Made by a program: the position numbers and the translations under genes. Positions 15,912 to 61,092 of a DNA stretch of 64,000 nt are shown one piece after another. The stretch comes from Eledone cirrhosa. Taxonomy: Eukaryota. Location of the stretch: contig OZ024762.1 of assembly GCA_964016885.1 (NCBI GenBank), forward strand, positions 16,616,001 to 16,680,000, read 5' to 3'. Position 1 is the stretch's first letter. Every line of letters starts with the position of its first letter. A model generated the notes under the pieces. It was not told the DNA's origin, made no database searches, and saw only the letters and a list, made by a program, of their open reading frames with translations.

Positions 15912-16403
15912 TAAATTAGTGAGAATCGTATTTTGGCTTAGGAATTAACGAAAAACAACTTCCGAGATGTGTGGCAAGCGCTCAATGATTCAGATGAACC
16001 AGAGCTACAAAATACGCTAAAGGCCAAACACACCGAGACGATGGTTAAACAATCATCCGCACAACCATAAAAACGACCAAGTAATTCGGGTCAAACAAAT
16101 AAAAATATATGTGATTGAAATTATTAGAAATGTAAGCTATCGCCATATTTTGATAATGGACACTAAATTTTGACTAAAGAAATTAAAGAAATTATTTAGC
16201 CTCATAGTGGGGTTAAGAACCCTCGGAGAAATGGAAAAAGATGAGTATTGACGTACATGGGAATCGAACCCACATCTTTGGTTATCCGGGCCACTGTGCT
16301 ACCATTTACACCAACACCCTCGGAGAAATGGAAAAGGAATTCTTAACCCCACTATCAGGCTAAATAATTTCTTTAATTTCTTTAGTCAAAATACGGCGAT
16401 AGC

Positions 16404-16446
<43 letters not shown>

Positions 16447-25400: not shown

Positions 25401-28400
25401 ACAAACTATCCCTGAAAATAGGATGAGATGACATAGGTGGATATATTTTGTTTCATCACAGGTATACTTAAATAGAACTGACCTAGGCTAAACAGAAAAT
25501 ACATTGACATCAGTCATATATTATGTTGACATCAGTCATATTATTATGTTGACATCAGTCATACACTATGTTGACATCAGTCATACTATGTTGACATCAG
25601 TCATACACTATGTTGACATCAGTCATATTATGTTGGCATCAGTCATATTATGTTGGCATCAGTCATACTATGTTGACATCAGTCATACACTACTGGGACA
25701 TTAGCCACACATCATCATCATAGTTTAATGTCCATATTTCCACGCTAGTATGGGTTAAACTACACACTACACAGATACCAGTCATATATAAAAACAAAAG
25801 AAAAATCACCCACCTTAGCCTCAAGTGAGTCAAGGCGCCGGCCTACGGTACGGATTATCTGGCACAAACACTCCAAGTCCTCAGCCATATCTTTAACGGG
25901 AAGGTTTTTCTTCTTTTCCAATAGCTGCTTGATGCATTTGTGCAAAATACCCTCGTGCAGCATTTCCAGTTTGCCAAGTTCACCTGCAATTAAATTAAGA
26001 CATCCTTAATTACAAACATAATTGAATAGGAAGAAAAAAAAAATTAAATCTCACACCTATGTAGGTCTACCTGGAGTGACTCTGATCGCCGAGTTTCACA
26101 CTTTCCAAATTGAGAGATCACAGTGTCGGAGAGGAGGGAGGGAGGGAAGGGGATAGGAAAATGTGTTTAAGGTTTTTCCCAAGATTTCTCCCAGGCCAAA
26201 TAGAATAATCATGTCATGTTTGGAGATTTTTATATATTTGTACTGTTTTTTATTGTTATTAAAGAATCACTGGACAGATTTTACGGGCAAAACCAACTGA
26301 CACGAAACCCAGAGGTAGACCCCGAGCAAGATGGTTGGATAACATCCATGAGCTTGGCTGGTCTCGCCGCTTGGGGATCCAGCTGGATCAGCTGCTTCTG
26401 AGAGGACCTGCTGGAGGGAGTGTTTGAGGACTCTTTCCCCACGACCCTCTTAGGAATGGGTGGGCGAAGAAGAAGACCTATGCAGGTTTAGCTAGCCTCC
26501 TCATTGGTTTCTTGTGTGTTTTATGACAGGGGTTCCAGTTTTATAATACTATTGTTGTTACACCTCATAATTATATGTTTAGCTGGCTGCCTATATGGTT
26601 GCATTGCATTGGAGGTTTCTTGGGTGTTTTAATGATAGGGACCCAAGCCCTATCAACACTACATGTTACAGCTCACACTACTGTAGGTTTAGCTGGACTC
26701 ATACAAGGCTATATCTGATTGAAGGCTTCTTTGATGTTTTAATAATAGGGTCCCCAGTCTTATGTTGTTACAGCTGTGAAGGTTTAGTTGGCGGCTGGCT
26801 TCCTATGAAGTTGTACCTGGTAGATCTCTTTCTTCTTTTTTTTTTTTGGAAGGTGTTCTAATGGAGGGGGGGGGGGGGCAGTTGTATCATGAAAAGCAAC
26901 GTGGAATAAAGCATCTCGCTCAAGAACACAAAGTCAGCACTTATAGGACACATGCCTAAGTACTCAGTCGAGGACTCAAACCCCAAACTCTAAGAGGCCA
27001 ACACTAACCACTAGGGCACATGCCTAAGTACCCAGTCCAGGATTCAAACCCCAAACCTTATTAGCTTATGACCAAGATCTCACCACTAACCACTAAGGAC
27101 ACATGCCTAACAGAATGACAGAAGTTAGATTACCAATCACAAAACAAAAATATACAACAGTAAACAATAAAATCTCAACTGACCAATAAATTTGATGTTG
27201 CCCAGCATTTTCTGTTTAGCCAGATGGTATTGCTCTGCTTCATCATCATTGAGGGGGCCATCTTTCTTATCAAATGCTGCAACAAAATAAACAACAATAT
27301 ATCATCATTTAACATCTACTTTCCATTCTCACATGGGTTAACCCTTTAGCATTTACATTACTCTATACATACTATTGTATTTTCACAGGAAAGGCTTTAT
27401 AGCATTTACATCACAATATATATACTATTATATTTTCATGGTAAACACTTTATCTTACGTAATTATCTCACAATATGGAACCTATGAGATTTTCATATTA
27501 TTTATTTTGAGAACAAAACCTTAACATCAGAATGAGCGGCTGGTTACAGCCGGTTTGAACAGAAAGGGGCCAGTTTACAGCCAGTTTAAATGCTAATGGG
27601 TTCAAGGACACACACATACAATATGTATAATATGAAGAGAACTTGTTTACCTTCGGTAGCACGGGATCGGTTTTCAAATTCATCCTGGCACTTATTTAAG
27701 AGTAGACGTCGAAAAGTCTGAAACATTAAATGATTAAAAAATTACAGGAGTTAAACTTTAACAGACTTTGGTCATAACTATAGGAGTTAAAATATAACAG
27801 ACTTTGGTCATAACTATAGGAGTTAAAATATAACAGACTTTGGTCATAACTATAGGAGTTAAAATATAACAGACTTTGGTCATAACTATAGGAGTTAAAA
27901 TATAACAGACTTTGGTCATAACTGTAGGAGTTAAAATATAACTGACAGTCATAACTATAGAAGGTAGACTATAACATGACTTTGGTCATAACTACAGGAG
28001 TTAAACTATAACTGACAGTCATAACTATAGGAGGTAGACTATAACATGACATTAGTCATAACTAGAGGAGTTAAACTATAACATGACATTAGTCATAACT
28101 ATAGGAGTTAAACTATAAGACTTTGGTCATAACTACAGGAGTTAAAATATAACTGGCAGTCATAACTATAGGAGGTAGACTATAACATGACTACAAGAGT
28201 TAAACTATAACATGACATCAGTCATAACTACAGGAGTTAAACTATAACTGACATTAGTCATAACTGTATGGCATGGACCCGTATCTCCTGAGTTGTAGAG
28301 GTGCCATATTGACATACAGAATTTCTTAGTGCATTTTAAAATCTGGAGAAGCCCCCATCTCCAATTCAAGGTCTGAGTACAGCAGATTTCTTCCAGAGGA

Positions 28401-31400
28401 CAGAGAGTGGGAGACTGGTAGTGAGAAAGAAAAAGAGATACAGAGGAAGGATTGACCCCAGTACTTGACTGGTATTTTTTATTTATTGACCTTGAATGGA
28501 TGAAAGGCAAAGTTGACCTTCACAGGAATTGAGCTGAGAGAGAAGAGAGCCAGAATGAATACCTCAAAACTCTCCGACAATCTAACAACTCTACAACAGG
28601 AGTTATAAAATATTTTGATATATTCTAAATATATAAAAGAAATTTATTTAAAACCAATGATTTTTTAACACACACGCACGTTTGAAAATACACACATAGA
28701 AAATTTGAAAATATATTCACCAAAATACAGGTAACTATAAATAATAGTTCAATAGATCAGGTAAAGTACTCCAGTCCACTATACACCTTTTTTGCACCTC
28801 CAAGAGTACTTTATCCAATATCCTCAGCTATTATTTATAGCTATCAACTATTTTTATAGTTTATCTACATTGTCAAACACACACATGAAACCCGACTGAA
28901 ATAGGATAAAAAAAATAAAATAACTTACAATAGTTTTAGTGGAAGAGTGATCAAAATTTGGAGCGTCCTTACAGAGACGGTGACATAGCTGTGCATAAAG
29001 TGAACTATATTTTGGCTCATCTAAGGCTTTTTCGAAGATCTGCAAATAAATTGAAGAGAAATATTTTAAAATTGATCACATGTAACAACAAAAAGTTAAT
29101 AAAAATTTTTTTTTATTAGGCTGCCTGAAACCATACCTGGTTTTACACGCACACACACATCATTTTAGCGTCAATCTTTCCATGCTTGCATGGGTTAGCC
29201 ATGTTGCACCTTCCTCCGGCGAGGACTGTAAATTCGGCTGGGTATTTTACAGTTGGATGCCCTTCCTAACACCAACCACATTTACAGTTTTATATATATA
29301 ATGTTGATTGCTACTTTTAGTCAGAAAAGTACCACCATTTCATTGAACATTGTACGGAGGTGACTTTTCAGACCCGCTTTTGTTTTGCAGGTACATTCAC
29401 AGATGTGACACTTGAGCTGTCTGTCTCCTCTTAAAACAAGCTCCGTGGTTAGTTTGACACTAGGATGGGGAACTTAACATCTCCCTTGAACTACAATCTC
29501 TTCTTTAACCCTTTAGCATTCACATTGAATTGTCAAATGTCATGTTCATCTATTCGCATTATTTTCACTTAATTATACTCAAGAGGGTTATCAATTTTAT
29601 TTGTTTGTAATTACTTTAATTTTCTATGTGCAGACTTGAAATTTTGTCAGTAGATGTTTAAATAACTATAATTTACAATTATATATTTTTACCTGATTTT
29701 TTTTGTTAAATTTGACTTTTATGGGCAAGTGAAATTAATTAACAGGTGTAAAAGTAATAACTTTATGGATAAACACAAAAATTTAAACTTTATCTGCCTT
29801 ATCTGTTAGATTTGTTGCAAAAAAATCCAATAATGATCTAGATGCTGATTTCCATCAATTCTAGCAGTTTTCTGAACAGGTGAATTAATTAAAAATGCAG
29901 GTGTAATCAGTACACGGTTTTAGTCTTTCTCTACATTCCAGGCAAATATTTTCATTGAAAAAAATGTATAAAACCTTTTCACCGGTCAAAATAATATTGG
30001 CAATGTACTCTGTAAATGTACGGTGTAAAATTACATAATAGAAAGTTCCCAATATATAAGTTTATACACACTTTTAAATTTTTCTGACAATATTTCAATT
30101 AATGGTCGTACTTTGTACAATGGGTCGTAATTTGATTCATTTCTACCAGGGGCATTTGAAGTATCAACTAGATGCAAATACTGGTTTAATTTAATGAATC
30201 TCGTTTTTGCCATAATACTAGATATATAAGGGTCACCAAACCTTATATCAGTACTCCAATAATTCCACAGTCGTGGAAATTGTTTAATACCAAACATAAT
30301 ATTTATGGTAAAAAACGCTTTCATTTCGGCAGAATCTGTCGGACAACATAACAGATCGGGTTTTCCGATATTAGAAATTTGTTGTTGTGCATAGCGATTT
30401 GCCACAACTTCGAAGAAAGATTGTGGTAAAAATAAAAAATAATAATCCAGTGCTTTAGCATCGGGTGGTAATGTGTGTTGTGGTCCAATATTTTCAGTAA
30501 AATCCGAAACATGTATCGATGTTGTTTCTTTCAACCACGTTGCTATTTTTTCAATGGTGTCAGTCAAATCTTCTCTTTCACTTTCAAAGTAACTATCATC
30601 ATTATCAGATATATCAGAAATAAATATATCTGATTCGTTTGAAGATAAATCACTGATATTATCTTCTGTTTCTTTTTGATCTCGAATGTCGTCGGACGTA
30701 AAACCTTCAAATTCGTTGTCGCTACTTTCGGAAGCCATGTTACACTTTCAACGTTAAAAACACGTGTTATCGCAAGTTCTTTAACTATACTAAGAGTTAA
30801 TTTTCGCGCGTAAGGGCTTTATCTCGCAGTAATCTCGAATTGACGAGATTTCGATGATGTCAATGTTTATTTTTAGAAGGAAATCTCCGTGTGGTATTAA
30901 ATGTCGGTTTTTGTCGGTTTGAATAAATGAAAGGGGACATAATTTTGTCGGTTTTTGTCGCTTTGAACGCTAAAGGGTTAAGTGTCAACCTATATCAGCT
31001 AGTATTGACCATAGTTTTTCAATCATTGGTAAAATACTAAAAGACAAGAGTTTTTCTCCTGAGAACTTGGAATTTTATATTGCAGCAATGTATAATATAT
31101 AAATAGTTTTGATTTTATCATTTGTTATTTTTTTTTAATGAATAATAAAGATTTTGAGTTTTTTTTCTAATTTCTTTAGGTCTCCATAAAGTCTAAAAAC
31201 AAAAAAAAATTATGGTTTAAAAAAAAAAATAGCCCTAATAATTACAAAAGAACAAGAATCCTTACCAGAAGAATAATTCCCTTAAGGATGAGCTGGGAGT
31301 CAATACCAACATTTAGAAGCTCCAAACTTAACTTATCAAACTTCTCCGGAGTAAGTTTATTGAGAATTCTAGAAAATAAAGAAATCATATTGTAAAATTA

Positions 31401-34399
31401 CAATTCAATATTCTCCAATCAATATTTAGAATGGTTCAATAATAAGATTTAAAAAGGTTTAACAATCAATACTAATTTAAAGATCTAAAATCATCAGCAG
31501 ATTGACAATTTTTACTGCATATCTTGTGTGTATATATATAACTCCTGAGGGAGTCAGAGGGATGCCATAGTGACATGCACTATGTCTTGGGCACATGAAC
31601 CCATTACCATTTACATTACTTTATATTTACTATTGTTTTTTGTTTTTTTATGGTAAACACTTTATCTCACATAATATTGAAGCTAATAGATTTTGATATT
31701 ATTTATTTCGAGAACGGTGGATTGGCAGTATCGGTAGAGAGTCAGACGCCATGCTTTCCAGCATAGTTACGTCCCTTTACGGTCTGAGTTCAAATCTCGT
31801 CGAGGTTAACTTTGCCTTTCATCCTTACGGGGTCGATAAAATAAAGTACCAGTAATGTACTGGGTAATTGCTGGCCTTGTGCCTAAAGTAGAAACAATTA
31901 TTTATTTCGAGAACAATACCTTAACATCAGTATGAGTGGCCAGTTATGGCAAGTTTGAACAAAAAGAAGTGAGAGAATTCTGGCCAGATGTAACCGATTT
32001 AAATGCTAAAGGGTTAAATCTGGCAGAGTCCATCTCTTCTGCAGATCTTAACATAACAGGTTCCTTCCAGAGACTGAGAGACAAGAAGTGATAAAGAAGA
32101 AAGAGATATATAGAGGAAGAATCGGCCCCAGTACGTGACTGGTACTTTTATTTATCAATCTCAAAAGGATAGAAAGCAACATTGATTATGGCAGGATTTG
32201 AATTCAGGACTCAGCAAGCCAGAATGAAAACTGAAGCATGTTGTTTGGAACTCTGATATCGCCAACCCACAGCAGGTTTTGAATTCAGAGCACAGAAAAC
32301 CGGAACATATACTGCAAAGCATGTTGTCTCATGCTCTACCAATACTGCCAATTCACCACCCAACTGCTAAAAATAACAACCTAAACTATAATAAAGGAAG
32401 GTCTGCGGGACTGCGTACGGTTTAATATTTTTTATCCCGTTAGTAAAATAAGTTGGATTACTTTGAAAAAATAATGAATGAATATTACATAATTTATCTA
32501 CTAAATTTCGTTATTCTTGATTAAATATAAATAATTATGTTGCTTATTTAAAGATTCACTTCTTTAAAATTTTCAAATGTCAACACTTCTGGTCAGCAAT
32601 CATTTAAATAAACATTCATATATTTCTGTCACTAATTTTTTCCTAATGCAGTTTATATATAATATCGTCTTTTTTTAATGTATCATGGATTACGTTACTG
32701 ATTAAATAAGACAGTGTAACGCAGTCTTCGTTTAATTTCTGTGTATATTGTCAATTACGATTTTATTTGATGTATCATATCTACATGTATATATACTTGC
32801 GTATAATATCAATATACACACTACACATGTTAGCAGAAAAACCGCCTGAAGGGTGGTTATTCTGCTAGTAATAATAATAATAAAAGTGTCAGAAAACATA
32901 CCCTCTGGCCTTACGGAATATCAGATCATTTTTCTCATCAACTGAAAGACCATCTCGTTGTTTACTAGGTGGATTCCATCTGAAAAAGTCGAAAGATTTA
33001 TTGTTTTAAAAAATCAAAAGCAAACAAAAAGGTAACAATCCAATTCAGTTATATTTTCTTAGGAAGCCTCTGAATTAAGCATGGGCACCTTTTGCAAGCA
33101 ATGAGCCACATGAGGCATGGCTCATAAGGTGACAGCACTATTAAAAAAAATTCAAGGTGTGCCAAAGCCAAATAAGCTACAGTTTACCTGCAACTGCTCT
33201 ATATGGTGTCCTCAATTTGCTAGAAACATCAGCCGAATGATCTCAAAATGACATCCTGTTTTATATTATTCATGTGGTATTTAGAACATGAAGCTCCTTA
33301 CATAAAATAATTGTTTCTACGTTTGGCACAAGGCCAGCAATTACTCAGTACATTACTGGTACTTTATTTTATCGACCCCATAAGGATGAAAGGCAAAATT
33401 AACCTCGACAAGATTTGAACTCAGACCATAAAGGGACGTAACTATGCTGGAAAGCATGGTGTCCGACCCTAATGATGGAAGAAGCTATTTAGATAAATAT
33501 AAACATTTTAACCCTTTTGTCACCATATTTCTAATAAAAAAATACTGCCTACTTCAATTAATTTTGAAAATAATCGACAATTAGAAGTCAGTCAGTAACA
33601 TAACTAATTATTTCATTTTTAATTATGTTTGAAACATAATTTAAACATTTTCATATAGCTATGGATGCAAGAGGTTATATTGTGTGTATCCCAGTTTTTA
33701 GAAAAGGTACACCATATCCCTGTGTATTGTGAGAGGCAACTAAAAGAGTTGACATCAGGAATGACATCTTAAACCATCCCAGCATGGAAATGTGGACAAA
33801 ACAAACTGCTTTGTATCATAAAAAACAGGGGTGGTTTCAGGCATTTTGGTATCAAAGGGTTAAGGTATTGCTGTAATATTACCTTTACTTAACTTCCCTC
33901 TCTCTCTCTCTCGCTCTCAAAAATGTGGCTAAAATAAACATAGTTGTTTTATTATGTATTACCATGGTTATTACGACCAGAATTGTCTCCAAGACAATTT
34001 GCTGATCATATAAACAGTATGAAGTGACCCGGTCCTATCACAAAAACAATGCCCCCATCAACGTTGTAGTACTACCTTTTATTTTAACCTTACGTTCACA
34101 AAATGTTAACCCTTTAGCATTCACATTACACTATATATACTATTGTATTTTCATGGTAAAGGCTTTACCTCACATAATATCAAATCTATGAGATTTTGAA
34201 AGTATTTTTTTGAGAACGATACCTTAACATCAGTTTGAGTGACCAGTTACAGCCAGTTTCCACAGAAAAAGGCAGAGAATTCTGGCCGGTTTTGAACATT
34301 AAAGGGTTAAAGTCACAATAAAACAGAGAGAAATGAGGGAAAAACTCACCGTCCTCCGGAGCGTCGGGAAACACCACCCTCTTCTTTATGTCCGTCCAG
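6897..34399 (-). CDS. EIF4G2: Eukaryotic translation initiation factor 4 gamma 2 (DAP5/NAT1/p97); whole spliced CDS, 23 coding exons, 2793 nt, 930 aa, inferred CUG start
   Basis: Exons join in phase at GT-AG sites. Diagnostic peptides: IFRKARGILNKLTPEKFDKL, IFEKALDEPKYSSLYAQLC, KMLGNIKFIGELGKL, SRIRFMLQDVVELR (MIF4G); IGTGPGVI; ETDVPLIKSY (MA3); EEEAFLKWKEDINDEYPGKGKALFQVNQWLTWLEQAEEESEDEDDD* (W2). No N-terminal eIF4E-binding extension. Confidence 0.96.
7614..7674 (-). pseudogene. tRNA-Phe(GAA) pseudogene lacking the T-loop
   Basis: GCTGAAATAGCTCAGTTGGGAGAATGTTAGACTGAAGATTTAAAGGTCCC|GAGTTTCGGCA; matches eukaryotic tRNA-Phe with about 12 nt deleted. Confidence 0.8.
8117..8238 (-). CDS. EIF4G2: eIF4G2 coding exon 22
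   Basis: MLRRFFMHFYDMEIIEEEAFLKWKEDINDEYPGKGKALFQ. Confidence 0.96.
8280..9130. repeat. 32-bp minisatellite, about 26 copies
   Basis: aatagcaggacattctcgtagtatggaaccac. Confidence 0.95.
9541..9637 (-). CDS. EIF4G2: eIF4G2 coding exon 21
   Basis: VVLQQFLHDHTDLQVVALYASQVFCYNNQFPK. Confidence 0.94.
9766..10212. repeat. 35-bp minisatellite
   Basis: cccaagtatgagagggtcaactttagagacagaga. Confidence 0.95.
10475..10764. repeat. 39-bp minisatellite abutting a splice donor
   Basis: aaggatatcttggtttatacaacacaataccattgaaga. Confidence 0.95.
10766..10877 (-). CDS. EIF4G2: eIF4G2 coding exon 20
   Basis: ILKYITKASTLLENCDPSIPPEKHLVEKEKDMLDKLK. Confidence 0.93.
11610..11862. repeat. 47-48-bp SINE-derived minisatellite
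   Basis: accactttatagtgtgggttgggcggttttgtcatgacacctacacg. Confidence 0.9.
12247..12451 (-). CDS. EIF4G2: eIF4G2 coding exon 19
   Basis: ECDQSKEKMMEILEDRSLSFLFPLLRIQSELWKQI...GFINILTT. Confidence 0.95.
13505..13763 (-). CDS. EIF4G2: eIF4G2 coding exon 18
   Basis: AYRSVLEKLADLETDVPLIKSYVA...GAHYPLFLISLQQ...SKINLQDMLP. Confidence 0.95.
13805..14141. repeat. 79-bp tandem repeat of the MITE left end, about 4 copies
   Basis: Unit starts ttaaccctttagcatttaaacc. Confidence 0.9.
14396..14475 (-). CDS. EIF4G2: eIF4G2 coding exon 17
   Basis: DTEREKVMNLIVGMKPENLITSETFMG. Confidence 0.9.
14885..15675. repeat. 48-bp SINE-derived minisatellite, about 16 copies
   Basis: cccagcccacactgtaaagtggttgtgtaggtgtcacgacaaaaagca. 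Confidence 0.95.
16461..16513 (-). CDS. EIF4G2: eIF4G2 coding exon 16
   Basis: FIADSIYKMMINNVDKT, phase 2-1. Confidence 0.88.
16753..16928. mobile_element. piggyBac-type MITE
   Basis: TTAA-CCCTTTAGCA...AAAGGG-TTAA. Confidence 0.8.
17043..17176 (-). ncRNA. Candidate intronic H/ACA-like RNA
   Basis: Two hairpins separated by AGATAA (ANANNA); second hairpin followed by ACA; sense to host gene; folded by eye only. Confidence 0.3.
17213..17826. repeat. 48-bp minisatellite, about 13 copies
   Basis: agtacactctgtaaagtggtagtgttggtgtcatgataaaatacaccc. Confidence 0.95.
17919..18001 (-). CDS. EIF4G2: eIF4G2 coding exon 15 (MA3 start)
   Basis: TSLLDDYFNSGDVQAATSAVKDLNAPN. Confidence 0.92.
18722..18811 (-). 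CDS. EIF4G2: eIF4G2 coding exon 14
   Basis: PQITIKQANPEKSKAVKKAPLTKKELENSM. Confidence 0.9.
20091..20350 (-). CDS. EIF4G2: eIF4G2 coding exon 13
   Basis: FPAPGRDLPQRFMRMN...EDINLRP...PHLINKQ. Confidence 0.9.
21052..21309 (-). CDS. EIF4G2: eIF4G2 coding exon 12 (low-complexity linker)
   Basis: NFSNQFNNRRMQDNSGGG...QPPLSSVQRTQ, cag/gtgag, phase 1-1. Confidence 0.88.
21855..21950 (-). CDS. EIF4G2: eIF4G2 coding exon 11
   Basis: NIGTGPGVIQADGFLSGYSMNMGRRGSQPTP. Confidence 0.92.
22038..22837. repeat. GA-rich tract followed by 33-bp minisatellite
   Basis: (GA)n at 22038-22270; aaagttaagaacaagatctgggaacaagatcta from 22298. Confidence 0.95.
22939..23095 (-). CDS. EIF4G2: eIF4G2 coding exon 10
   Basis: EFGIYLGLPDGSGRSGGPAGSLFGSRMMNG...GGLADIFSAAPTGLL, phase consistent. 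Confidence 0.9.
23305..23910 (+). repeat. 123-bp tandem repeat (5 copies) of a LINE ORF 3' segment
   Basis: Units start at 23305, 23428, 23551, 23674, 23797; contain the YGHVVRMSQERI-coding motif. Confidence 0.9.
24164..24235 (-). CDS. EIF4G2: eIF4G2 coding exon 9
   Basis: WVPRKVLSDHGPKTISQIRQEAAD. Confidence 0.94.
24513..24666. mobile_element. piggyBac-type MITE
   Basis: TTAA-CCCTTTAGCA...TGCTAAAGGG-TTAA. Confidence 0.8.
24880..24990 (-). CDS. EIF4G2: eIF4G2 coding exon 8
   Basis: AWMDKYFERIKNFASNSDLPSRIRFMLQDVVELRANK. Confidence 0.95.
25814..25983 (-). CDS. EIF4G2: eIF4G2 coding exon 7
   Basis: ELGKLEMLHEGILHKCIKQLLEKKK...DLECLCQIIRTVGRRLDSLEAK. Confidence 0.95.
27184..27276 (-). CDS. 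EIF4G2: eIF4G2 coding exon 6 (contains first in-frame ATG, codon 160)
   Basis: AFDKKDGPLNDDEAEQYHLAKQKMLGNIKFIG. Confidence 0.95.
27651..27717 (-). CDS. EIF4G2: eIF4G2 coding exon 5
   Basis: TFRRLLLNKCQDEFENRSRATE. Confidence 0.95.
27745..28265. repeat. Roughly 36-bp minisatellite
   Basis: aacagactttggtcataactataggagttaaaatat. Confidence 0.9.
28929..29039 (-). CDS. EIF4G2: eIF4G2 coding exon 4
   Basis: IFEKALDEPKYSSLYAQLCHRLCKDAPNFDHSSTKTI. Confidence 0.95.
29509..30977 (-). mobile_element. Internally deleted piggyBac transposon
   Basis: TTAA duplications at 29505-29508 and 30978-30981; TIRs CCCTTTAGCATTCA / TGAACGCTAAAGGG; contains the N-terminal half of a transposase ORF. Confidence 0.9.
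30031..30738 (-). pseudogene. Truncated piggyBac (PGBD4-like) transposase
   Basis: Acidic N-terminus, then EMKAFF..I.FGI...YWST...MAKTRF..L...LHL.D and DPLYKVRPLIE; stops before the DDD catalytic core. Confidence 0.88.
31266..31368 (-). CDS. EIF4G2: eIF4G2 coding exon 3
   Basis: ILNKLTPEKFDKLSLELLNVGIDSQLILKGIILL, tag/gtaag. Confidence 0.95.
31716..31896 (+). mobile_element. Full-length tRNA-derived SINE (about 180 bp) with target-site duplication. Other copies at about 3108-3283, 5876-6170, 18850-19160, 33310-33470, 35250-35680, 36317-36520, 39820-40050, 43650-43765, 61937-62123
   Basis: A/B-box-like head (ggcagtatcggtag...gagttcaaatc); 18-bp duplication attatttatttcgagaac on both sides; many dispersed copies. 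Confidence 0.85.
32902..32979 (-). CDS. EIF4G2: eIF4G2 coding exon 2
   Basis: WNPPSKQRDGLSVDEKNDLIFRKARG, cag/gtatg. Confidence 0.93.
34110..34306. mobile_element. piggyBac-type MITE. Further copies at about 7680-8075, 18115-18330, 21680-21830, 27340-27600, 31600-32012, 36635-36822
   Basis: TTAA-flanked, TIR CCCTTTAGCATTCA, shared internal sequence. Confidence 0.8.
34350..34399 (-). CDS. EIF4G2: eIF4G2 coding exon 1 (coding part of exon 34350-34465), CUG start
   Basis: Acceptor tttcag at 34466; in-frame TAA at 34450-34448; ataCTGG then DGHKEEGGVSRRSGG; donor CG|gtgagt in phase with the next exon. Confidence 0.82.
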
Positions 34400-34889
34400 T
34401 ATGCTGCTTGTTGTTGGAAGGAAACACCAACGTGCAGTTGTGATTATTTAAAAAAAAAATTTACCCTGAAAGAAAAAGACATTCGAAGAGAGATTTTAGC
34501 AATGTAAACTGACAAACTCATTTTACACAACATATATAAAATATGTGGGGCTTATTATGGTGGGTGCACATACATTTGGTAGGTCACATTGCAATAATCC
34601 TTCAATAAGTAACCCTTTTGATACCAAACTGTCTGAAACTGACCCTTCTTCCTGAGGGTGTCATGAGGGCAGAGTCCTCAAACACTCCTTCCAGCAGGTC
34701 CTGGCAGAAGTAACAATCTCCAACTGATCAGGCTGGAATCCCAAGCATGACCAGCCAAGCTCATGGATGTTATACCCTGTTCTGCGCTGTATAACTATGT
34801 CCTTTAAAGTGTTTATGGTTATCTAAGAACCTTCCTTCATAATTTTATGTAGGAACATTTGTTAAGCTGTGTTCCGAACACCAGCTGAA

Positions 34890-45630: not shown

Positions 45631-45731
45631 CTTTAATTAAAAAAAAAAAAAGAATAATCAGTGCCCGTTATTAAATAATAATAATAATTAGTGTGGGGGT
45701 TTTTAAGCTGGCAAATCCATTATATCACTGC
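45631..45731 (-). other. EIF4G2: Probable non-coding first exon of eIF4G2 with short uORF (45720-45703)
   Basis: Strong donor AAG|GTAAG at 45631/45630, adjacent to the SBS-like motifs; the 5' end is approximate. Confidence 0.55.
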
Positions 45732-45732
45732 A

Positions 45733-45750
45733 GCAGAGCATCACGGGAGA
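45733..45750 (-). promoter_or_regulatory. Staf/ZNF143 binding site-like 18-mer, copy 1
   Basis: TCTCCCGTGATGCTCTGC, close to the SBS consensus YYWCCCRNMATSCMYYRC. Confidence 0.6.
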
Positions 45751-45953
45751 AGGAAAAAAGCTACGAAACGTCTTTCGACAAACATTATTTGCTATTCGTT
45801 ATTGTTTAACTAAAAATTATTTTTTTAAAATAATTTTCTCATATAATATTATGGAATCTATTTTAGTTTTTATTTAAATAAATTTTTCAAAAATATTAAC
45901 GATCTAAGAATCTCATGCTTTTTCTTATTTTTTCCAACTCTGAAATGATTCGT

Positions 45954-45971
45954 GCAAAGCATCACGGGAGA
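45954..45971 (-). promoter_or_regulatory. Staf/ZNF143 binding site-like 18-mer, copy 2
   Basis: TCTCCCGTGATGCTTTGC, 17/18 identical to copy 1. Confidence 0.6.
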
Positions 45972-46544
45972 CATGCCAACCGCTGTTTCCCCATCCAATT
46001 AAAAAAAATGTAATTTTAGTTTAAATTCTTCCATATTATCTTTTATTATTCAGTTTTTAAGGAAATAATATGAATTAATTACGCTACATTTCTCAAAATA
46101 CATAAATATAGATTTATCTTTTTGTTATTTTAAAAAAGAAATTAACAACGCCATGAAATTAACGAAGACAGTGAGAAGACTGGTATAAACTATTTCCAAA
46201 TAACTGTAGAAGAATATAAGAACCATCGAGAAGAATTTAGATAAATAATGAAAAGGTTTCGGAATAATGATAAAAATATATATTGATGGTGTAAATAATT
46301 ATTGTAAAAATATATTTTTAAAAATTCTGGTAAGTTGTCAGAAAAGGGAGGCAACTTTGCTGAGGAAGAGCAGTAAATAGTGAGAAAGACATGAATGAGA
46401 ACAGAGATATAAAGCTAAAGATGAAAAAAACATTTGTTATAAAAATAAAAATAACCGTATAAGATGAGTAAAAAGCCGGTTTCATTAGCGAAAATATTAA
46501 CTTACAAGCTTGGCTCATCAAAAGAGACAACAGGGAGATATTTG

Positions 46545-46716
46545 ATTGTGTAGTCCGGGCGTAAATATATCTCGGAAGGAGAGCCAGGCCCCCCGACTTG
46601 CCAGTAAAAATGGCTGGGCAGCTTCACTTAAGATGGCGGCCACGGGAAAGAGTCGGGGAAGGCGGCGATGGTGTACAGTAGGCGTACGACAAGGCAACTC
46701 CTACTTCTCTTTCAGG
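46545..46716 (+). promoter_or_regulatory. CpG-rich putative TSS/first exon of ZNF143 with YY1 motifs
   Basis: GC/CpG-rich patch in AT-rich DNA; AAGATGGCGGC at about 46630 and AAAATGGCTG at about 46607. Confidence 0.5.
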
Positions 46717-47683
46717 TTAAACGCATCCAAATTTTAGCATTCATTTTTTTAAATTAACTCACAAATAAATCCCTCATGAATAATAATTTAATATTAAAAA
46801 AACAGCAAACAAACAGATTTTTAAAAACAAATGATATCGCTAAAATATTTCATTCATACCAGAATTTATTTTACTTTCGGTCATTTTTTGCAAAAGATAT
46901 TTAGGAAAATATATTACAATATAATAATAATTTCTTCAGGAATACGCATTTCTAATAATATGTGTGTATATATGTATGTATGTTTGTGTGTACTTCACGT
47001 ATTGAAATGTGCGTAGTAATGAAAGAATGATAATTTCATATCCTTAACTTGTTCATAATTTTTAATATATATATATATGTCTGTGTGTCATTATCGTCAA
47101 CATTGATTTTCCATGGTTTTGATAGTTTATCACGTGCCGGGGCTAGATCAGTCAGGTGACCACATCCAGTTCATTATAAGCTTCATTATTGTCTGGTTTC
47201 TATAGCCGAATGCCCTTTCTAACGCCAACCACTTTATAGTGTGAAGCATTTATCATGAACCCAGTACCACTACCTTACATGATGAACTAGGTGCTTTTCG
47301 TTGGGGGACCAACACCAAGACCATACAGAGCTTACAGAGTGGACTGGGTGTTTTTCATTGTGGCACTGGCACTATAACTTTACAGGGTGAGCTGGGTACA
47401 TTTTATCCTGGCACCAGCACTACCTTATTACAATGCTAGGGTGTTTAGTATATCAGTGTCCTTGGTCTGACTGGAGAGGCCTTGATAGAGGTTTGGTGGG
47501 GTGTACAGACATACGACTGTGTGGGAGGAAATGAAGGGTGGCTGGTGTGACATATTGTGGAGTGTCCCATATTTGAGTGCTTTAATTGCTCTGGAGATCT
47601 CAGCCTTGGAGAGATTAGTTTTCACCTCTAGATGCACCTCATATACACCAGATGATATTGTGATCATATATATATATATATAT

Positions 47684-47870
47684 CCCGGGTTCAATCGGGG
47701 GTAACCACAGTAAGTAAGGTACTCAATACAAAGCAGAGTATATATATTTAATATAGAAAGGCTTCTATAAGACTAGAACTGTTTCATTCGGGAGAAATCA
47801 TCAGGGCTTCCTGATGATTTCTCCCGAATGAAACAGTTCTAGTCCTGTAGAAGCCTTTCTGTATTAAATA
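47684..47870. repeat. Dispersed palindromic repeat with CTGATGA...GAAAC core. Copies at about 44725-44900, 52777-52960, 53607-53790; 5' part at 40884-40938
   Basis: ttctacaggactagaactgtttcattc...gaatgaaacagttctagtcctgtagaa fold-back. Confidence 0.85.
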
Positions 47871-47879
47871 TATATATAT

Positions 47880-48276
47880 ATGGAGAGAAATGAGGCAAGC
47901 ATGCTCCGTTGGATGTGCAGTGTGAATGTGCGTGAACGACCCAGCATGAATGTGTTGAGAGAGAAACTGTGTCTGAGAGGGATAGAATGTAGTGTACGGG
48001 AGAGGAGACTGAGGTGGTATGGACATGTGATGCGCATGAGGATGACCGATGGGTGAAGAAGTGCCAGGAAATGCCAGTTGAAGGAAGACGTGGTAAAGGT
48101 AGACCACGAAAAACATGGGCGGAGGTGGTGAGAACAGACCTCAGATCGTTGAAGCTCACGGTGGAGATGACGAAGGACTGTGACAAGTGGAGAGATGCTG
48201 TGCTAAATAAGACCCGTCCCACCCTTGCAAGCAGGGAAGAGTGGACGTAAAATGATGATGATGATGATGATGATGA
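47880..48276 (+). mobile_element. RTE-clade LINE 3' fragment. Related pieces at about 14555-14780, 53905-54150, 55930-56115, 26260-26480, 40075-40305
   Basis: RLRWYGHVMR...GRRGKGRPRKTW C-terminal motif followed by a (GAT)n tail. Confidence 0.8.
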
Positions 48277-50219
48277 TCTATATTAAGTATATATATATAC
48301 ATTTATGTTTAGTGGTTCACCTGCATAGATCGTCTGCCAATTGCCAAGTCACCCATCTGTTTTTACACATGCCCTCCATACCACTCTATCGTCAGTATTT
48401 TGAGCTCTCCTCAACTATCCACCCCAGTGACTGTGTCCTATGCCAAATCACCAATCTGTTTTTACACATGCCCTCTATCCTCCATCAGTTTTCTGAGTAA
48501 TCCTAAACTATCTACTCCTTTATCTAGCTGTAAGCTATCAATGTACCTGCTTTTCCTTCTACTCCTGTTTGTTGTGTATCCATCTGATTGTTCCCACAGA
48601 ACATGATCACTTGCTGTCTCCATTCAGATATTCTCTGAATTAATCAATATTTGCTAACTCAGATCCAATAAGTTTTTCTTTATACTTTACTAATCTAAGC
48701 CTTGACCTTTCTATATAAGTGAACTGAAAAAAATGTAGCTGGATGTTAAAAGCATTTGTCTATGTCTGCAACAGGAGCAATTGTCCATTCCTCATATTGC
48801 TGTTGTTTAGCCCCATGTTAACACTGACTGTGCAAACCTAAAGCAAACATCCCATCTTTAGATCTATCCAGGAAATATATTGTCCAACATACCCTTCATT
48901 TTTAATGATGGCTGTGTGTGTGATTTGTAGATTTGACTGTGAGCTCTAGCAGGTCAAACAACTAAGTTATTGACTGGTAAACAGAAGGAGGCAATTTTTT
49001 TAAAATTTTTTGTTAACTTGTTCATACACTTCTGCCAGAAATTATAACCGACAGATAGTATCTTCAATGGAAAGACTAATGGCAACATTGTTTCCTTGGT
49101 CTGATCTGACAATCAGTTCATTTCTTATATCAGGAGTTGTGACTAACAGATAATATATTCAATGTAATGACTAATGGAAACATTGTTTTCTAGGTTTGAT
49201 CTGACAATCAACTCCTTTCTTTTGCTAGGAGTTGTGACTAACAGATAATATCAACAATGAAAAGACTAATGGAAACATTGTTTCCTTGGTCAGGTCTTTT
49301 TCTTTTTCATACCATGGATTGTTATTGGTTGTGCTAACTACTACAACAGGAGTCTGCAAACATTTTTGGAGGCAGGATAGATTGGAAATATTTTTGTTTT
49401 GCAAAGTGAATGGGATAGAGTGATTTGCAGTATTTGTTCTGATATTCTGTGCCTACTGAGTTCAACTATGTTTTACCCTTTCGAGGTTAATAGCACAAGT
49501 TCCAGTCCAGTATTGAATTATCACAATGAACCCTCTGGCAGAGTTCTTTTCTAGAAATCTGATGTGTATGGACGAGTTGCAAGACCAACGATGTTCTTGA
49601 AGATGACACTGGGTTAGATTCAGACAGCAATTCTGGACAGAGTAAGCTGGAGGAGAAAGTTTGTAATGGCACCAATAACAGATGTATCAAAGTAGAAGTA
49701 TTGAGGTCAATTCTTCCTCTATATCTCATTCTCAATTACGCCCCCCCCCCCTCTATCTTTCTCTGGGAGAAATCAGCTGTTCGGACCTGGAGATGAGATG
49801 GGCTCTGCCAGGTTTTAAATGCTCAAGACACATTGTATGTTTCTGGGACCCCACTACAACCCAATCACAAGTTATGGGTCTATACAGAAATGAGATGAGC
49901 TCTGCCAGGTTTTAAATGCTCAAGACACATTGTATGTTTATGGGACCCCTCTACACCCCCATCACAAGTTATGGGTCCATACATAAGTTATCTTGTCTTG
50001 GCAGGATATGAAATACAATAAAAACACAACTGGCTTATACAGATTTATATACAGGGTGTCCCCAAAAATGTATATATACTTCAACAGCATTCTAATAAAT
50101 ATTGCCTGTACAAGTAACCAAAGTGTGTATATATTTTTTGTTACATTATATATATATTAGTCTTTACTGTCTATTTTATTTATTTAATCAATATATCAAT
50201 AGGTCCCTCTTCTTCCTCA

Positions 50220-50870
50220 GATTCCCTTAACTCTGTCACCATCCAGTTCTACTGTAGGACCCTCTGTCACCATCCAATTCTACTGTAGGTCTCTCTTACA
50301 GATTCCCTTGACACCCTGTCACCACCCAGTTCTATTGTAGGTCCCTCTTACACAGATTCCCTTGACTCTTGTCACCAGCCAGTTCTATTGTAGGTCCCTC
50401 TTACACAGAATCCCTTGACACCCTGTCACCACCCAGTTCTATTGTAGGTCCCTCTTACACAGATTCCCTTGACTCTTGTCACCAGCCAGTTCTATTGTAG
50501 GTCCCTCTTACACAGAATCCCTTGACACCCTGTCACCACCCAGTTCTATTGTAGGTCCCTCTTACACAGATTCCCTTGACTCTTGTCACCAGCCAGTTCT
50601 ATTGTAGGTCCCTCTTACACAGAATCCCTTGACACCCTGTCACCACCCAGTTCTATTGTAGGTCCCTCTTACACAGATTCCCTTGACTCTTGTCACCAGC
50701 CAGTTCTATTGTAGGTCCCTCTTACACAGAATCCCTTGACACCCTGTCACCATCCAGTTCTATTGTAGGTCCCTCTAACACAAATTCCCTTGACTGTCAC
50801 CATCTAGTTCTATTGTAGGTCCCTCTTCTTCCACATATTCCCTTGACTATCTGTCCCCATCCAATACTAT
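50220..50870. repeat. 53/54-bp minisatellite with alternating dimer variants
   Basis: gtaggtccctcttacacaga(t/a)tcccttgac...cagttctatt. Confidence 0.92.
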
Positions 50871-50879
50871 TGTTCATCA

Positions 50880-51501: not shown

Positions 51502-53245
51502 TGTGTATATATATATACATACACACGCACACACATATGTATGTATATATATGTGTGTATGGATATATATATATATATACACACACGTGTGTACGTACGT
51601 AGGTACGTTACGTCAAGATTCTATTCTTAATTTTAAATGTGATGTCCATCAACTGGTTTAAAGAACATTGCGAGGTGTTTTTTTTTTTCAAAATAAATTA
51701 ATACAAACACTTTCACATTAAAAAATATTGTCAAATATTAAAAAGAATTTAATTGTTTGAAATGTATTTATTAGAACAGAGAATTAATATTACATGCAGC
51801 AGTAAATAGACGAGAAGTAAGCAGAAAATACTAAATGAAATATAAATATATAAAGAATATTAAATAATACTTTTAACTGTAATAAATATCAAAATCTTTT
51901 ATAATATAATACTTGAAAATAACCGAGTAATAAATAAGGAGGGAAATAAAAGAAAATATTTGTATGAAATAAAAATGTATGATCAATTGTGTTTACTCCG
52001 TCACTGCCATTAGTATGAAGGCTGCTGACGAGGCTCGGGAACGTGTATTATAAATGCAACCATTATAAGGAAATCAAACAGCAAACCTTCCAGTATATAT
52101 ATAAATTTATATATATATATATATAAATTTATCGAATTGAATATATATATATATATTTATATATAAAAATCTTCCCTTTGTTTATTATTTATATCTATCT
52201 TTTAGATAAATGATTTCATTAAACGAGATGTAAATCCGTATGTGGATATGACTAAAGGTTTATATAGAGATATAATATAGATATATATTTTTTTGGTTGT
52301 TAAATTGTTCAAGGTTTGACTTTAAAGTGGTCAAATTTTGAAGTTATTTCAAGTAATAAGATAACGTCTTCTTTATGCTGGTTCCGTGTCCGTATGGTGT
52401 GGAGGTTGCAGTGTTGCATGGCGGTCTAGGTGGGTGCCAGGATCTTTGGGTAAGTTTTTCCCAGTGTTCCATTCTCGACACTCTTCCTTGCTTAGTTCAC
52501 TTCTTCACATCTCAGCTACATGGCTGTCGCCCTCGCTTTATTATTATTATTATTTTATTGTCTTATCTCTCCTCCATAACCCTCCTCCAATAATATTTAT
52601 AACATTACATTATTACATCAGGCCATGTTACACACTAACACACACATATATATATATATATATATGTTATATATATATATATATGTTATATATATATATA
52701 TATAACATATATATGTATGTTATATATAACATATATATGTTATATATAATATATATATATATAATATTATGTGTACCCCGGGTTCAATCGGGGTTAACCA
52801 CAGTAAGGAAGGTACTCAATACATTAGTACGGTGTATATAACAAATTTAATATAGAAATGTCTTCTACAGGGCTAGAACTGTTTCATTCGAAGGAAATCA
52901 CCAGGAAAGTCCTAACTGATGATTTCCTCCGAATGAAACAGTTCTAGTCCTGTAGAAGCCATGTCTATATAAATATTGTATATATATATATCATCATCAT
53001 CATCGTTTAACGTCTATCTTCCACGCTAGCATGGGTTAGACGGGAATTGTACCACTTGAGGCAAGATTGGTCGGGTGACTATCTCGCTCGTATATAATAT
53101 ATATATATATATTATAAATTTCCTTCCACATGGCATAGGCATAGCCCCTGTCTGCTAATATTTTAATCAATTCCACACTGTCATCTTAACAGATTTGATC
53201 TCTGTCTTACTGAAAGCCTTCATATAAATACATATGTATACACCC

Positions 53246-59442: not shown

Positions 59443-60605
59443 AGGGGATTGGGTGCTTTTTTTGACACCAGCACTACAGCCTTATAGTGCAGACTGGGTG
59501 CATTTTATCATGACATGTGCACTGGTGTGGCATTGGTTGGGAGTGGTAAGGCTTCATACCAGTGTGAGAAGAGAGAGAAAGTGTCAGGTTATAGAAGTGG
59601 CCAAGAGTGTGTGTGTGTGTGTGTGTGTGAAGGTAGATAAGGTTTTGTTTATGTATACCAGGAATGATTGCTTGAACAAGAAAACTGTTTACCAGAGTTT
59701 GACTTGGCAGTAGCCTTTGAATCATATTGCCTATGATTGAACAATATATATTAGTCAGCATATGCAGACAATTATAATAGGCAGAGAAACATATGTTATA
59801 GCAAATAAATTCCTAATCTCATTTCTCACCAATGTTTATATTTTTGTTGGTGCAATACTTGCTTATCATCATCATCATCGTTTTATATATATATGTGTGA
59901 AGGCGCATGGCTTAGTAGTTAGAGCATTGGGCCTGCAATCGAAAGGTTGTGAGTTCAATTCTCAGACCGGGTGATGTGTTGTTTCCTTGAGCAAGACACT
60001 TTATTTCACATTGCTCCAGATTACTCAGCTGTAGAAATGAGATGATAAGACTGGGGTCCCTATCATTCCACTGCAAGGTTGTACAGGTGTCACGGCAAAA
60101 AAAGCACCCAGCCCACACTGTAAAGTGGACGTGTAGGCGCCATGGAAAAAAAAGCACCCAGCACTCACTGTAAATGAGGTTGGTGTTAGGAAGGGCATCC
60201 AGCTGTAGAAATCAAGCCAGAATCAGTTCCCGTATGAGCAAGATAAGGTCAACCCGTCTAACCCATGCTAGCATGGAAGAACGGACGTAAAACGGTGGTG
60301 ATGATTTATATTTATATATATATATATAGTAATAATGATAAATGTGAAGATTAAAATCCAAAGAGGGCTCGATAAGGATAAATATATATCAAATAACAGA
60401 TTAAAGTTTAAGCAAAGAATCGCTGCTTTCGCCCTTAACGGGATCTTCTGAAACTAAAAAAATCAATCTGTAAATGCAGAAGTAAATATTTTAATAACCT
60501 TTGTGACATGTATGTGAAGTAGAAGTTTGTACCTACTCAACTAAGTTGTGTATTTACTATATTTCCAGTTGATAATTTTGTGAAAGGAATTTTGGATCTG
60601 AATTG

Positions 60606-61092
60606 ATGAAGATGGATGATGTGGACCATGTGTCTGATTCTGTTAACATAAAGAATGATTTACATACTCGAGAACTGGACCAGTCCCTTCAGGTGAACCC
60701 TCACACTTTTACTGCTGACGCTGCAGAACAGAAAGTTATAGGTCTTCTTCTTCATACTACTGAAGGAGACAGTGATGGAACAGTGAATCAAGCCCACCCT
60801 GTTACTGTTGTAACAGCAAATACTGACCACGCAGTACAAGCAGTTACACTAGCCGACGGCACAACGGCTTATTTACATCCTACAAAAGATGCCAAATTTT
60901 TCGATGGTACCACAGTAACGCTGGACGATGGCACAACCGCCATAATGCACACGGGTTTAACCGATAAAGCAGATATTGTTACGGAAACGGAGACTACAGC
61001 AACAACAACTACAACGACCACAAAATTTGCTGATGGTCAACCTGTACAGTTGGAAGATGGTAGCACTGCCTACCTTCATCACCATCACAAAG
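60606..61092 (+). CDS. ZNF143: ZNF143/ZNF76 (Staf) family zinc-finger transcription factor, first coding exon (N-terminal activation repeats)
   Basis: Acceptor ttccag at 60568, in-frame TAA at 60573, ATG 60606. Repeats QAVTLADGTTAYLH, TTVTLDDGTTAIMH and QPVQLEDGSTAYLH are typical of Staf/ZNF143. Donor G|gtagg. Confidence 0.88.

What the first reader, a model, noticed from the sequence alone, without database searches (positions are those of the whole stretch)
45631..46716. Bidirectional eIF4G2/ZNF143 promoter carrying two Staf/ZNF143-like binding sites: possible autoregulatory coupling of a transcription factor and a translation factor
Seen: the genes diverge from a region about 1 kb wide. 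Two 18-mers (45733-45750, 45954-45971; TCTCCCGTGATGCTYTGC, 17/18 identical) sit in otherwise dissimilar AT-rich DNA. There is also a CTACATTTC motif (about 46084) resembling the ACTACA half of ZNF143 sites, and YY1 motifs at about 46607 and 46630. Established: ZNF143/Staf binds SBS 18-mers, is enriched at bidirectional promoters, and is reported to regulate its own gene in mammals. Inference: the ZNF143 encoded here could bind its own promoter and co-regulate eIF4G2. Both TSSs are inferred, not observed.
Basis: partly seen in the sequence, partly recalled or inferred. Interest (0 to 1): 0.72.

Follow-up and report, generated by a model that had tools for sequence, protein, structure and literature searches.

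The report
Octopus copy of ZNF143 self-sensor
In an octopus genome, two near-identical motifs that fit the binding site of the gene regulator ZNF143 sit at the likely start of the neighbouring eIF4G2 gene, while 6.7 kb away a leader exon of ZNF143 carries two motifs resembling the human ZNF143 self-sensing switch, which suggests that this feedback switch is older than the split of molluscs and vertebrates.

Summary
The two 18-mers are real (17/18 identical, no other copy within 4 mismatches in 64 kb) and fit the Staf/ZNF143 site (SBS). The flanking genes are eIF4G2 and ZNF143/76, and they look adjacent in several molluscs. The 1-kb bidirectional promoter is not supported. Cuttlefish-cluster ZNF143 proteins carry a leader that matches window 52399-52449, which ends at a strong splice donor 6.4 kb from the nearer site. 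The SBS pair instead sits at the inferred eIF4G2 5' end (45731), where a motif like the human 5' end occurs once. Around the 52449 donor lie matches to both human autoregulatory sites, SBS/B (13/18, exon) and SBS/C (12/18, intron), in the human order and strand. Given that donor, 1 of 5000 shuffles does as well; as a blind 64-kb scan it is not significant (42 of 300). Best reading: canonical-looking sites let ZNF143 regulate eIF4G2, and degenerate sites at its own leader exon act as the feedback sensor so far described only in vertebrates. The CTACATTTC motif is at chance level. No RNA, TSS or binding data were available, so all function is inferred.

The parts
45732..45750 (-). SBS-like site 1, abutting the inferred eIF4G2 5' end (about -19 to -1)
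   Evidence: (3 mismatches to a recalled 19-nt consensus); CCCR at 3-6 and C at 12 as PMC3082894 requires
45953..45971 (-). SBS-like site 2, about -240 to -222 from the inferred eIF4G2 5' end
   Evidence: (2 mismatches, the best match in 64 kb)
45631..45731 (-). inferred eIF4G2 exon 1 (101 nt) with a 5-codon uORF (ATG at 45720) and a strong donor at 45631/45630
   Evidence: single match to the human 5'-end plus uORF motif, 0.08 expected; human CAGE-based primer; donor 9.9 bits; not seen in RNA
34351..34465 (-). eIF4G2 exon 2, no ATG; CTG at 34399 in register with the vertebrate GUG start
6900..32981 (-). remaining eIF4G2 coding exons (MIF4G, MA3, W2 domains)
46546..46715 (+). GC/CpG-rich patch with two YY1-like motifs (46607, 46630); role open (divergent non-coding start, upstream ZNF143 exon, or eIF4G2 promoter module)
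   Evidence: donor 4.2 bits; the same AG/GT scores 9.7 as an acceptor; no Pfam or Rfam support
47185..50873 (.). repeat-rich spacer (interspersed repeats and tandem arrays) between the two 5' ends
52399..52449 (+). conserved part of the ZNF143 non-coding leader exon, ending at a strong donor (52449/52450); 5' end inferred near 52330-52400
   Evidence: 73.7% identity to the cuttlefish-cluster leader, E 4e-5; score 71, next best 36; donor 9.3 bits; best upstream AG 3.6 bits
52410..52427 (-). SBS/B-like degenerate site in the leader exon (13/18 to human SBS/B; holds an ATG at 52418 on the + strand)
   Evidence: zebrafish exon-1 guide in PMC6977252 shows the same core
52458..52475 (+). SBS/C-like degenerate site at the start of the intron (12/18 to human SBS/C; CCCA core and C12 kept), overlapping an Inr-type 7-mer at 52469-52475
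   Evidence: Inr consensus from PMC1904299, read by eye
60569..61092 (+). first coding exon of ZNF143/76 (ATG at 60606); zinc fingers lie beyond the window

Best explanation
The locus likely holds two separate promoters about 6.7 kb apart, both predicted to be read by ZNF143: two canonical-looking sites at the inferred start of eIF4G2, and two degenerate sites around the splice donor of ZNF143's own leader exon that would act as a level sensor. Shown in the sequence or by search: the four motifs, the donor, the leader exon's match in cuttlefish-cluster proteins, and near-identical recognition helices in related species. Inferred: ZNF143 occupies the eIF4G2 sites at normal levels, the distal site (-240 to -222) activates, and the proximal site (-19 to -1) may set or block the start. 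As ZNF143 rises it would fill the weak SBS/B- and SBS/C-like sites, shut the main start upstream of the leader exon and favour a start at the Inr-like 7-mer in the intron, as shown for human ZNF143 (PMC3936768). The sensor is likely inherited from the bilaterian ancestor.
For: The leader exon was located without any human sequence. Three Logan-sourced proteins (92, 5 and 2 contigs) and one Sepia pharaonis model share an N-terminal extension that matches 52399-52449, and their variants diverge exactly at the donor. Around that donor the 18-nt cores defined in the paper match 13/18 and 12/18, in the human order and strand, one on each side of the donor. 1 of 5000 local dinucleotide shuffles reached both values and 3 of 5000 reached the sum; the site ranks first of 231 GTRAG sites. 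Both full probes have a top-scoring match here, tied with 7 and 1 others. In both lineages this is the non-coding exon before the first coding exon. Recognition helices: 47 of 49 residues as in primate ZNF143. eIF4G2 5' end: single match, 0.08 expected. Binding over a start site represses some human genes (bioRxiv 2024.05.13.594008).
Against: As a blind 64-kb scan the paired match is not significant: 42 of 300 shuffles reach 25. Three places match SBS/C better (14/18) than the proposed site, one inside ZNF143's coding exon. Spacing differs (48 nt start to start; 71 in human) and the human TATA-like box is missing. The human TATA mutant did not affect the switch. 16 window sites are within 3 mismatches of the recalled SBS consensus against 10.75 expected, so consensus fit alone is modest. 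No true weight matrix was run. The human 5'-end motif occurred in 8 of 100 shuffles. EIF4G2 is absent from 9 searched supplement files of human and mouse ZNF143 peak data, which do list BUB1B and ZNF143. A weak acceptor at 52412 (0.9 bits) falls within the low tail of this gene's acceptors, so the exon could be internal. The window's own fingers lie outside the window.
Confidence: 0.55

Rival explanations
1. One reading: one bidirectional promoter of about 1 kb. ZNF143 starts near 46.55-46.6 kb, splices from 46715 to the 52.4-kb exon, and the two 18-mers drive both genes and mediate autoregulation.
For: GC/CpG-rich unique patch with two sense YY1-like motifs. The donor (4.2 bits) and the 52412 acceptor (0.9 bits) are weak but inside the leave-one-out range of the 22 eIF4G2 donors (2.2-9.8) and acceptors (-2.0 to 14.3). 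SBS drive bidirectional transcription in human pairs (PMC3082894). Gene adjacency is kept in several molluscs.
Against: None of the 8 cephalopod leader peptides scanned matches 46.5-46.7 kb. The junction scores much better as an acceptor (9.7) than as a donor (4.2). In human the sensor lies in the first exon, 63 nt after the start. Human autoregulation needs low-affinity sites, and canonical sites abolished it.
Confidence: 0.2
2. The 52.4-kb likeness to the human sensor is chance or convergence, or the block is conserved between octopus and cuttlefish as an RNA or uORF element around the ATG at 52418 and not as protein-binding DNA.
For: The blind-scan p is about 0.14. The SBS/B core contains an ATG, and several vertebrate models start a leader peptide there. 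Octopus-cuttlefish conservation is seen only through translated leaders.
Against: The conditioned test gives 1 of 5000. The SBS/C-like site is intronic, so a mature-RNA role does not explain it. The core positions CCCA and C12 are kept. The ATG opens a 3-codon frame here against an extended frame in vertebrate models.
Confidence: 0.17
3. eIF4G2 starts in the 46.5-46.7 kb patch on the minus strand and splices from 46506 to about 45727, so site 1 is part of a 3' splice region and both 18-mers are intragenic roadblock sites or are read by another factor.
For: Minus-strand donor at 46506/46505 scores 8.2 bits; the patch is the most GC-rich bin (57%) of 45.3-52.7 kb.
Against: The needed acceptor scores -0.7 bits. 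The human 5'-end motif begins at 45731. A splice signal would not explain a second 17/18 copy 221 nt away.
Confidence: 0.08

Closest known systems
Human ZNF143 'sensor platform' (SBS/B and SBS/C, TSS1-to-TSS2 switch; Ngondo and Carbon, PMC3936768)
   Same: Two degenerate SBS, one in the non-coding exon on the opposite strand and one just inside the intron, followed by an Inr-type motif; 13/18 and 12/18 identity; the exon precedes the first coding exon.
   Different: Described as conserved in vertebrates only. Here the spacing is 48 nt against 71, there is no TATA-like box, and neither binding nor a second start has been shown.
SBS1-type Staf/ZNF143 sites in Pol II promoters (PMC3627581, PMC3082894, PMC1904299)
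   Same: 18-bp sites with CCCR at 3-6 and C at 12, in a same-direction pair (221 nt apart; about 50 nt at BUB1B), no ACTACA extension.
   Different: Protostome genome. One site touches the inferred start. EIF4G2 is not in the human or mouse peak tables searched.
ZNF143-driven bidirectional promoters (Anno et al., PMC3082894)
   Same: Divergent gene pair with SBS between the genes.
   Different: The best-supported 5' ends are about 6.6 kb apart, against the definition of under 1 kb. The human ZNF143 promoter is paired with LOC644656, and human EIF4G2 lies about 1.35 Mb away on chr11.
Vertebrate EIF4G2/DAP5/NAT1 leader (PMC9945437, PMC6573783)
   Same: Non-AUG start in good context, a uORF, and a similar 5'-end motif.
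   Different: CUG instead of GUG, a 5-codon uORF, and no long CU tract (only T runs).

Membership tests
Staf/ZNF143 binding site (SBS1), sites 45732-45750 and 45953-45971 | CCCR at positions 3-6 and C at position 12 of an 18-bp site | tested here: met
Staf/ZNF143 binding site (SBS1), sites 45732-45750 and 45953-45971 | score above threshold with the published weight matrix | not tested
   no matrix at hand; consensus scan only: 3 and 2 mismatches of 19 to a recalled consensus, 16 hits against 10.75 expected
Staf/ZNF143 binding site (SBS1), sites 45732-45750 and 45953-45971 | cognate seven-finger protein with conserved recognition helices | tested here: met
   other cephalopods, abalone and mussel against primates; this species' fingers lie outside the window
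Staf/ZNF143 binding site (SBS1), sites 45732-45750 and 45953-45971 | binding in vitro or in vivo | not testable with these tools
   needs a gel shift or ChIP
SBS2 / M4 (ACTACA-extended, THAP11-shared) site | ACTACAN directly upstream of the SBS | tested here: not met
   flanks; the 46083 match is at chance level
Bidirectional promoter (starts under 1 kb apart) | two divergent start sites within 1 kb | tested here: inconclusive
   best-supported 5' exons are 6.6 kb apart; an exon at 46.6-46.7 kb is not excluded; no start site was observed
ZNF143 sensor platform | [quoted passage not shown] | tested here: met
ZNF143 sensor platform | sites are non-canonical (low affinity) | tested here: inconclusive
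   neither is within 3 mismatches of the recalled consensus (absent); affinity not measured
ZNF143 sensor platform | TATA-like box and Inr for the second start | tested here: inconclusive
   Inr-type 7-mer at 52469-52475, no TATA-like box (by eye); the human TATA mutant did not affect the switch
ZNF143 sensor platform | level-dependent switch of start site | not testable with these tools
   needs 5' mapping with ZNF143 raised or lowered
ZNF143/ZNF76/Staf gene | repeated activation motifs plus orthology to seven-finger Staf proteins | tested here: met
   88% to the O. sinensis protein, E 3e-86; all named zinc-finger hits are called ZNF143 or ZNF76
eIF4G2 (DAP5/NAT1) | MIF4G-MA3-W2 with a short N-terminus and a non-AUG start | tested here: met
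   (start codon inferred by register)

The most novel reading that the evidence does not exclude
The ZNF143 self-sensing switch is a cis-regulatory element inherited from the last common ancestor of protostomes and deuterostomes and still alignable between human and octopus. In molluscs it is wired into a conserved neighbour pair: ZNF143 sets eIF4G2 transcription through sites at its start, and eIF4G2, which helps ribosomes past uORFs, feeds back on the uORF-bearing ZNF143 leader. That would be a two-gene transcription-translation homeostat.
Probability: 0.25. Interest if true: 0.8.

Novelty: new variant of a known kind. Interest (0 to 1): 0.58.

Why it matters
Non-coding regulatory elements that can still be aligned between protostomes and vertebrates are rare (own knowledge), and the ZNF143 sensor was described as a vertebrate element (PMC3936768). 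A mollusc version would date a specific autoregulatory mechanism to the bilaterian ancestor. It would also give a natural variant (shorter spacing, no TATA-like box) that tests which parts of the switch matter, and the prediction can be checked at once with public genomes and CAGE or long reads. The eIF4G2 sites point to ZNF143 control of a translation factor in molluscs. The CUG in register with the vertebrate GUG offers a start site where PMC6573783 says none could be assigned unambiguously in molluscs.

Tried and rejected
No whole genome is held, so no genome-wide motif count or footprint could be run. The run search listed no RNA holder; this is no evidence on expression. Three runs of one sample were laid as contigs: one contig covers both 18-mers with 2 other letters elsewhere (46200, 46750) and no joints; it is probably not independent. 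The metagenome scan with the ZNF143 alignment returned 80 loci, of which 1 (L001) is ZNF143, an intron-free contig with only about 50 nt of leader; no synteny information. phmmer with the 40-residue frame over the 52.4-kb exon found 0 hits in 1.84 billion proteins. Rfam finds no snRNA or snoRNA at gathering level in the window, only 2 weak tRNA-like hits, and only sub-threshold hairpin hits in 44.8-47.5 kb, so the sites are not snRNA distal elements. Pfam found nothing in 7 intergenic frames, so there is no sign of a third coding gene. The tandem-duplication origin of the 18-mers was rejected, as was the ACTACA half-site. Human SBS/A has no match near 52.4 kb among the top 10 hits. The N-terminal 9 residues of RefSeq octopus eIF4G2 models have no match in the window, so they are probably predictor additions. 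Of 153 ZNF143/76 proteins inspected, only the 4 cuttlefish-cluster ones show the leader peptide and no other invertebrate does; a non-coding exon is rarely in frame, so this tests little. An attempt to get SBS sequences for a matrix from PMC3082894 file 9 (parts 1 and 27 of 45) gave none. Earlier scan notes: nothing for this place; 3 ZNF143 notes from other genomes did not bear. Some named splice candidates were off by one base and were rescored; two there (45940, 52404) were again off register and are not used.

Full report
1. The observation. The two 18-mers are at the stated places on the minus strand and are 17/18 identical; nothing else in 64 kb is within 4 mismatches. In 2000 local shuffles of 45631-46716 no GC-rich pair exceeded 15/18. 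The flanks are unrelated, so only the motif is shared. Shifted by one base, both sites have CCCR at 3-6 and C at 12, the features that PMC3082894 names for the SBS (passages). Against a 19-letter consensus recalled from memory they have 3 and 2 mismatches. Site 2 is the best match in the window, but 16 places reach 3 mismatches against 10.75 expected. A relaxed pattern that I made after seeing the sites matches only these two exactly; that test is partly circular. The CTACATTTC motif is at chance level (17 matches, 21 expected). The YY1-like motifs are present (motif recalled).

2. The genes. The minus-strand gene is eIF4G2: MIF4G, MA3 and W2 exons, 98% to Octopus bimaculoides in the MIF4G exon searched, 23 exon blocks mapped. 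The plus-strand gene is ZNF143/76 (88% to O. sinensis over its first coding exon). The organism is an octopod. Its fingers lie beyond the window; in three other octopods and the cuttlefish cluster the seven recognition helices differ from primate ZNF143 at 2 of 49 residues, and the finger domain is 171/204 identical. The same DNA preference is therefore likely.

3. Where ZNF143's leader lies. In the cluster of the Sepia pharaonis protein, the Sepia model and three Logan-sourced proteins (92, 5 and 2 contigs) carry an in-frame extension. It matches window 52399-52449 on the plus strand (73.7%, E 4e-5; ungapped score 71 against 36 for the next best place in 30-61 kb). The window has a strong donor at 52449/52450 (9.3 bits; 19 GT sites in the window reach about this level), and the cuttlefish-cluster variants diverge at exactly that codon boundary. 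No good acceptor precedes it (best 3.6 bits; 0.9 at 52412), so it is probably a first exon, though the low tail of this gene's own acceptors reaches -2.0. The stretch 47.2-50.9 kb is mostly repeats.

4. The sensor-like element. In human cells ZNF143 limits itself through two low-affinity sites, SBS/B in non-coding exon 1 and SBS/C at the start of intron 1. Filling them shifts initiation to a poorly translated second start, and canonical replacements abolish the response. The 98-bp block is described as conserved in vertebrates (PMC3936768: main text parts 3-6 of 8, supplement file 3 whole, file 2 part 1 of 2). With the paper's probes and its 18-bp boundaries, the window matches SBS/B 13/18 at 52410-52427 and SBS/C 12/18 at 52458-52475, in the same order and strand, on either side of the donor. 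The donor was fixed from cuttlefish data, so the fair test is local: 83 of 5000 shuffles reach 13 for B, 105 of 5000 reach 12 for C, 1 reaches both and 3 reach the sum. The site ranks first of 231 GTRAG sites and first in a sample of 1910 GT sites. Against this: in a blind scan 42 of 300 shuffled windows reach the same joint score, and three places match SBS/C at 14/18. The 12-nt SBS/B core shared by human and zebrafish (guide sequence in PMC6977252, passages) has its only 1-mismatch match at 52415. The SBS/C-like site keeps the CCCA core whose mutation abolishes binding and overlaps an Inr-type 7-mer (by eye). By eye, 52377-52398 also resembles the human stretch just 5' of SBS/B shown; this was not computed. 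The spacing is 48 nt against 71, and there is no TATA-like box.

5. What the 18-mers most likely serve. The CAGE-based 5' end of human eIF4G2 mRNA (primer in PMC6573783, section 13) starts with a 7-nt motif followed by a uORF ATG. That pattern occurs once in the window, at 45731-45716 on the minus strand (0.08 expected; 8 of 100 shuffles had one), 101 nt before a 9.9-bit donor, with a 5-codon uORF. Site 1 then ends 1 nt before the start and site 2 lies 222 nt upstream, while the ZNF143 leader is 6.4 kb from site 2. In human cells 96% of genes that need ZNF143 have a site within 500 bases, and binding over a start represses a few (bioRxiv 10.1101/2024.05.13.594008, parts 1-3 of 8). So eIF4G2 is the likely target, and the sign of the proximal site's effect is open. 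Human EIF4G2 was not found by name or RefSeq id in 9 supplement files of PMC3627581 (file 1 not searched; BUB1B and ZNF143 were found), nor in the one supplement file of PMC11754675, so this link may be a mollusc feature.

6. Gene neighbourhood. For 14 species I had accessions of both proteins. In 14 of 14 they lie on a contig of the same length. In 5 of 14 the accessions are consecutive (O. vulgaris, O. bimaculoides, Argonauta on two scaffolds, Haliotis asinina, Mytilus californianus). In Sepia they are 3 apart on a 1.4-Mb scaffold. In 8 of 14 they are about 235-1360 apart (O. sinensis, Pinctada, Solemya, Mactra, Gigantopelta, Littorina, Tubulanus, Owenia). Aplysia, Saccoglossus and Priapulus had them on scaffolds of different length. 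Accession order is a proxy: it shows neither orientation nor distance, and RefSeq numbering is not strictly positional (own knowledge). In human the genes are about 1.35 Mb apart on chr11, and the ZNF143 promoter is paired with LOC644656. Adjacency likely goes back to early molluscs and was lost several times, which argues against a strict need for a shared promoter.

7. Mechanism and odds. Best model (0.55): two promoters; canonical-looking SBS at eIF4G2; a degenerate, human-like sensor at ZNF143's leader exon. Every functional step is inferred. The leader holds ATGs at 52375, 52394 and 52418, and eIF4G2 is reported to promote leaky scanning past uORFs (abstract starts; PMC9945437 passages and section 9). 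A return loop through translation is therefore possible but untested.

8. Is it in print? Searches of the held library found no paper on this in their listings: ZNF143 + EIF4G2 (5 papers), ZNF143 + mollus (5), ZNF143 + cephalopod (0), and broader searches (listings and abstract starts only). Subscription journals are largely missing, and figures such as the vertebrate alignment in PMC3936768 Fig. 2C could not be seen. Also read as passages only: PMC3627581, PMC1904299, PMC7154149, PMC6817820 (reference list hits only). Takahashi et al. 2005 on non-AUG starts was not read.

9. Verdict. The motifs are real and probably ZNF143 sites, but they most likely belong to eIF4G2. The mechanism is known, the lineage and wiring are new, and the statistical support is good only when conditioned on the independently located exon. 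Interest 0.58.

Noticed in passing
window 34397-34399 (minus), eIF4G2 exon 2: No ATG in exon 2 and an in-frame stop at 34450. A CTG in strong context (A at -3, G at +4) is in register with the vertebrate GUG start. Leu stands at that place in 21 of 26 distinct N-termini, Met in 2 (one bivalve, one vertebrate-type), Val in 1 and other residues in 2. PMC6573783 says no start could be assigned unambiguously in molluscs.
   Followed up: partly
window 34400-34447 (minus): The 16 codons upstream of the CTG are nearly identical in Octopus, Argonauta and Sepia models: a conserved leader element or an upstream near-cognate start in cephalopods.
   Followed up: no
P0165, P0169 against window 32901-34351: Cuttlefish-cluster eIF4G2 has two tandem copies of the segment before MIF4G plus a linker found in other molluscs; octopod models and this window show one copy and no linker.
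   Followed up: no
window 46329/46330 (+): The highest-scoring donor among those tested (11.6 bits) lies in AT-rich DNA between the SBS pair and the GC patch; it could end a short divergent non-coding exon or be chance.
   Followed up: no
window 44975-45228: Inverted repeat with 120-nt arms, 98% complementary, in eIF4G2 intron 1; probably a small transposon. Rfam miRNA hits there are below threshold.
   Followed up: no
window 44708-44838 and 47739-47876 (also about 52850-52970 and 53680-53790 by eye): A family of palindromic repeats of about 130 nt occurs several times.
   Followed up: no
window 30031-30747 (minus): Remnant of a DDE_Tnp_1_7 (piggyBac-type, label recalled) transposase inside an eIF4G2 intron (E 7e-22).
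   Followed up: no
window 50870-51200 (+): Broken frame that resembles the end of a Helitron-type helicase (likeness recalled; Pfam found nothing), about 1.2 kb upstream of the ZNF143 leader exon.
   Followed up: partly
window 60941-60958 (minus): A 14/18 match to human SBS/C inside the first coding exon of ZNF143, with the core shifted; probably chance.
   Followed up: no
ZNF143 in O. sinensis, two abalones, four scallops and two mussels has several RefSeq accessions for one identical protein, which implies alternative untranslated exons; a cuttlefish-cluster protein (P0003) has a different leader joined to the same coding exon.
   Followed up: no
window 55094-55157 and 7614-7674 (minus): Weak tRNA-like Rfam hits (31 and 30 bits), probably tRNA-derived SINE heads.
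   Followed up: no
L001 1-1908: An intron-free ZNF143 coding sequence (82% in the finger domain) in a metagenome contig.
   Followed up: partly
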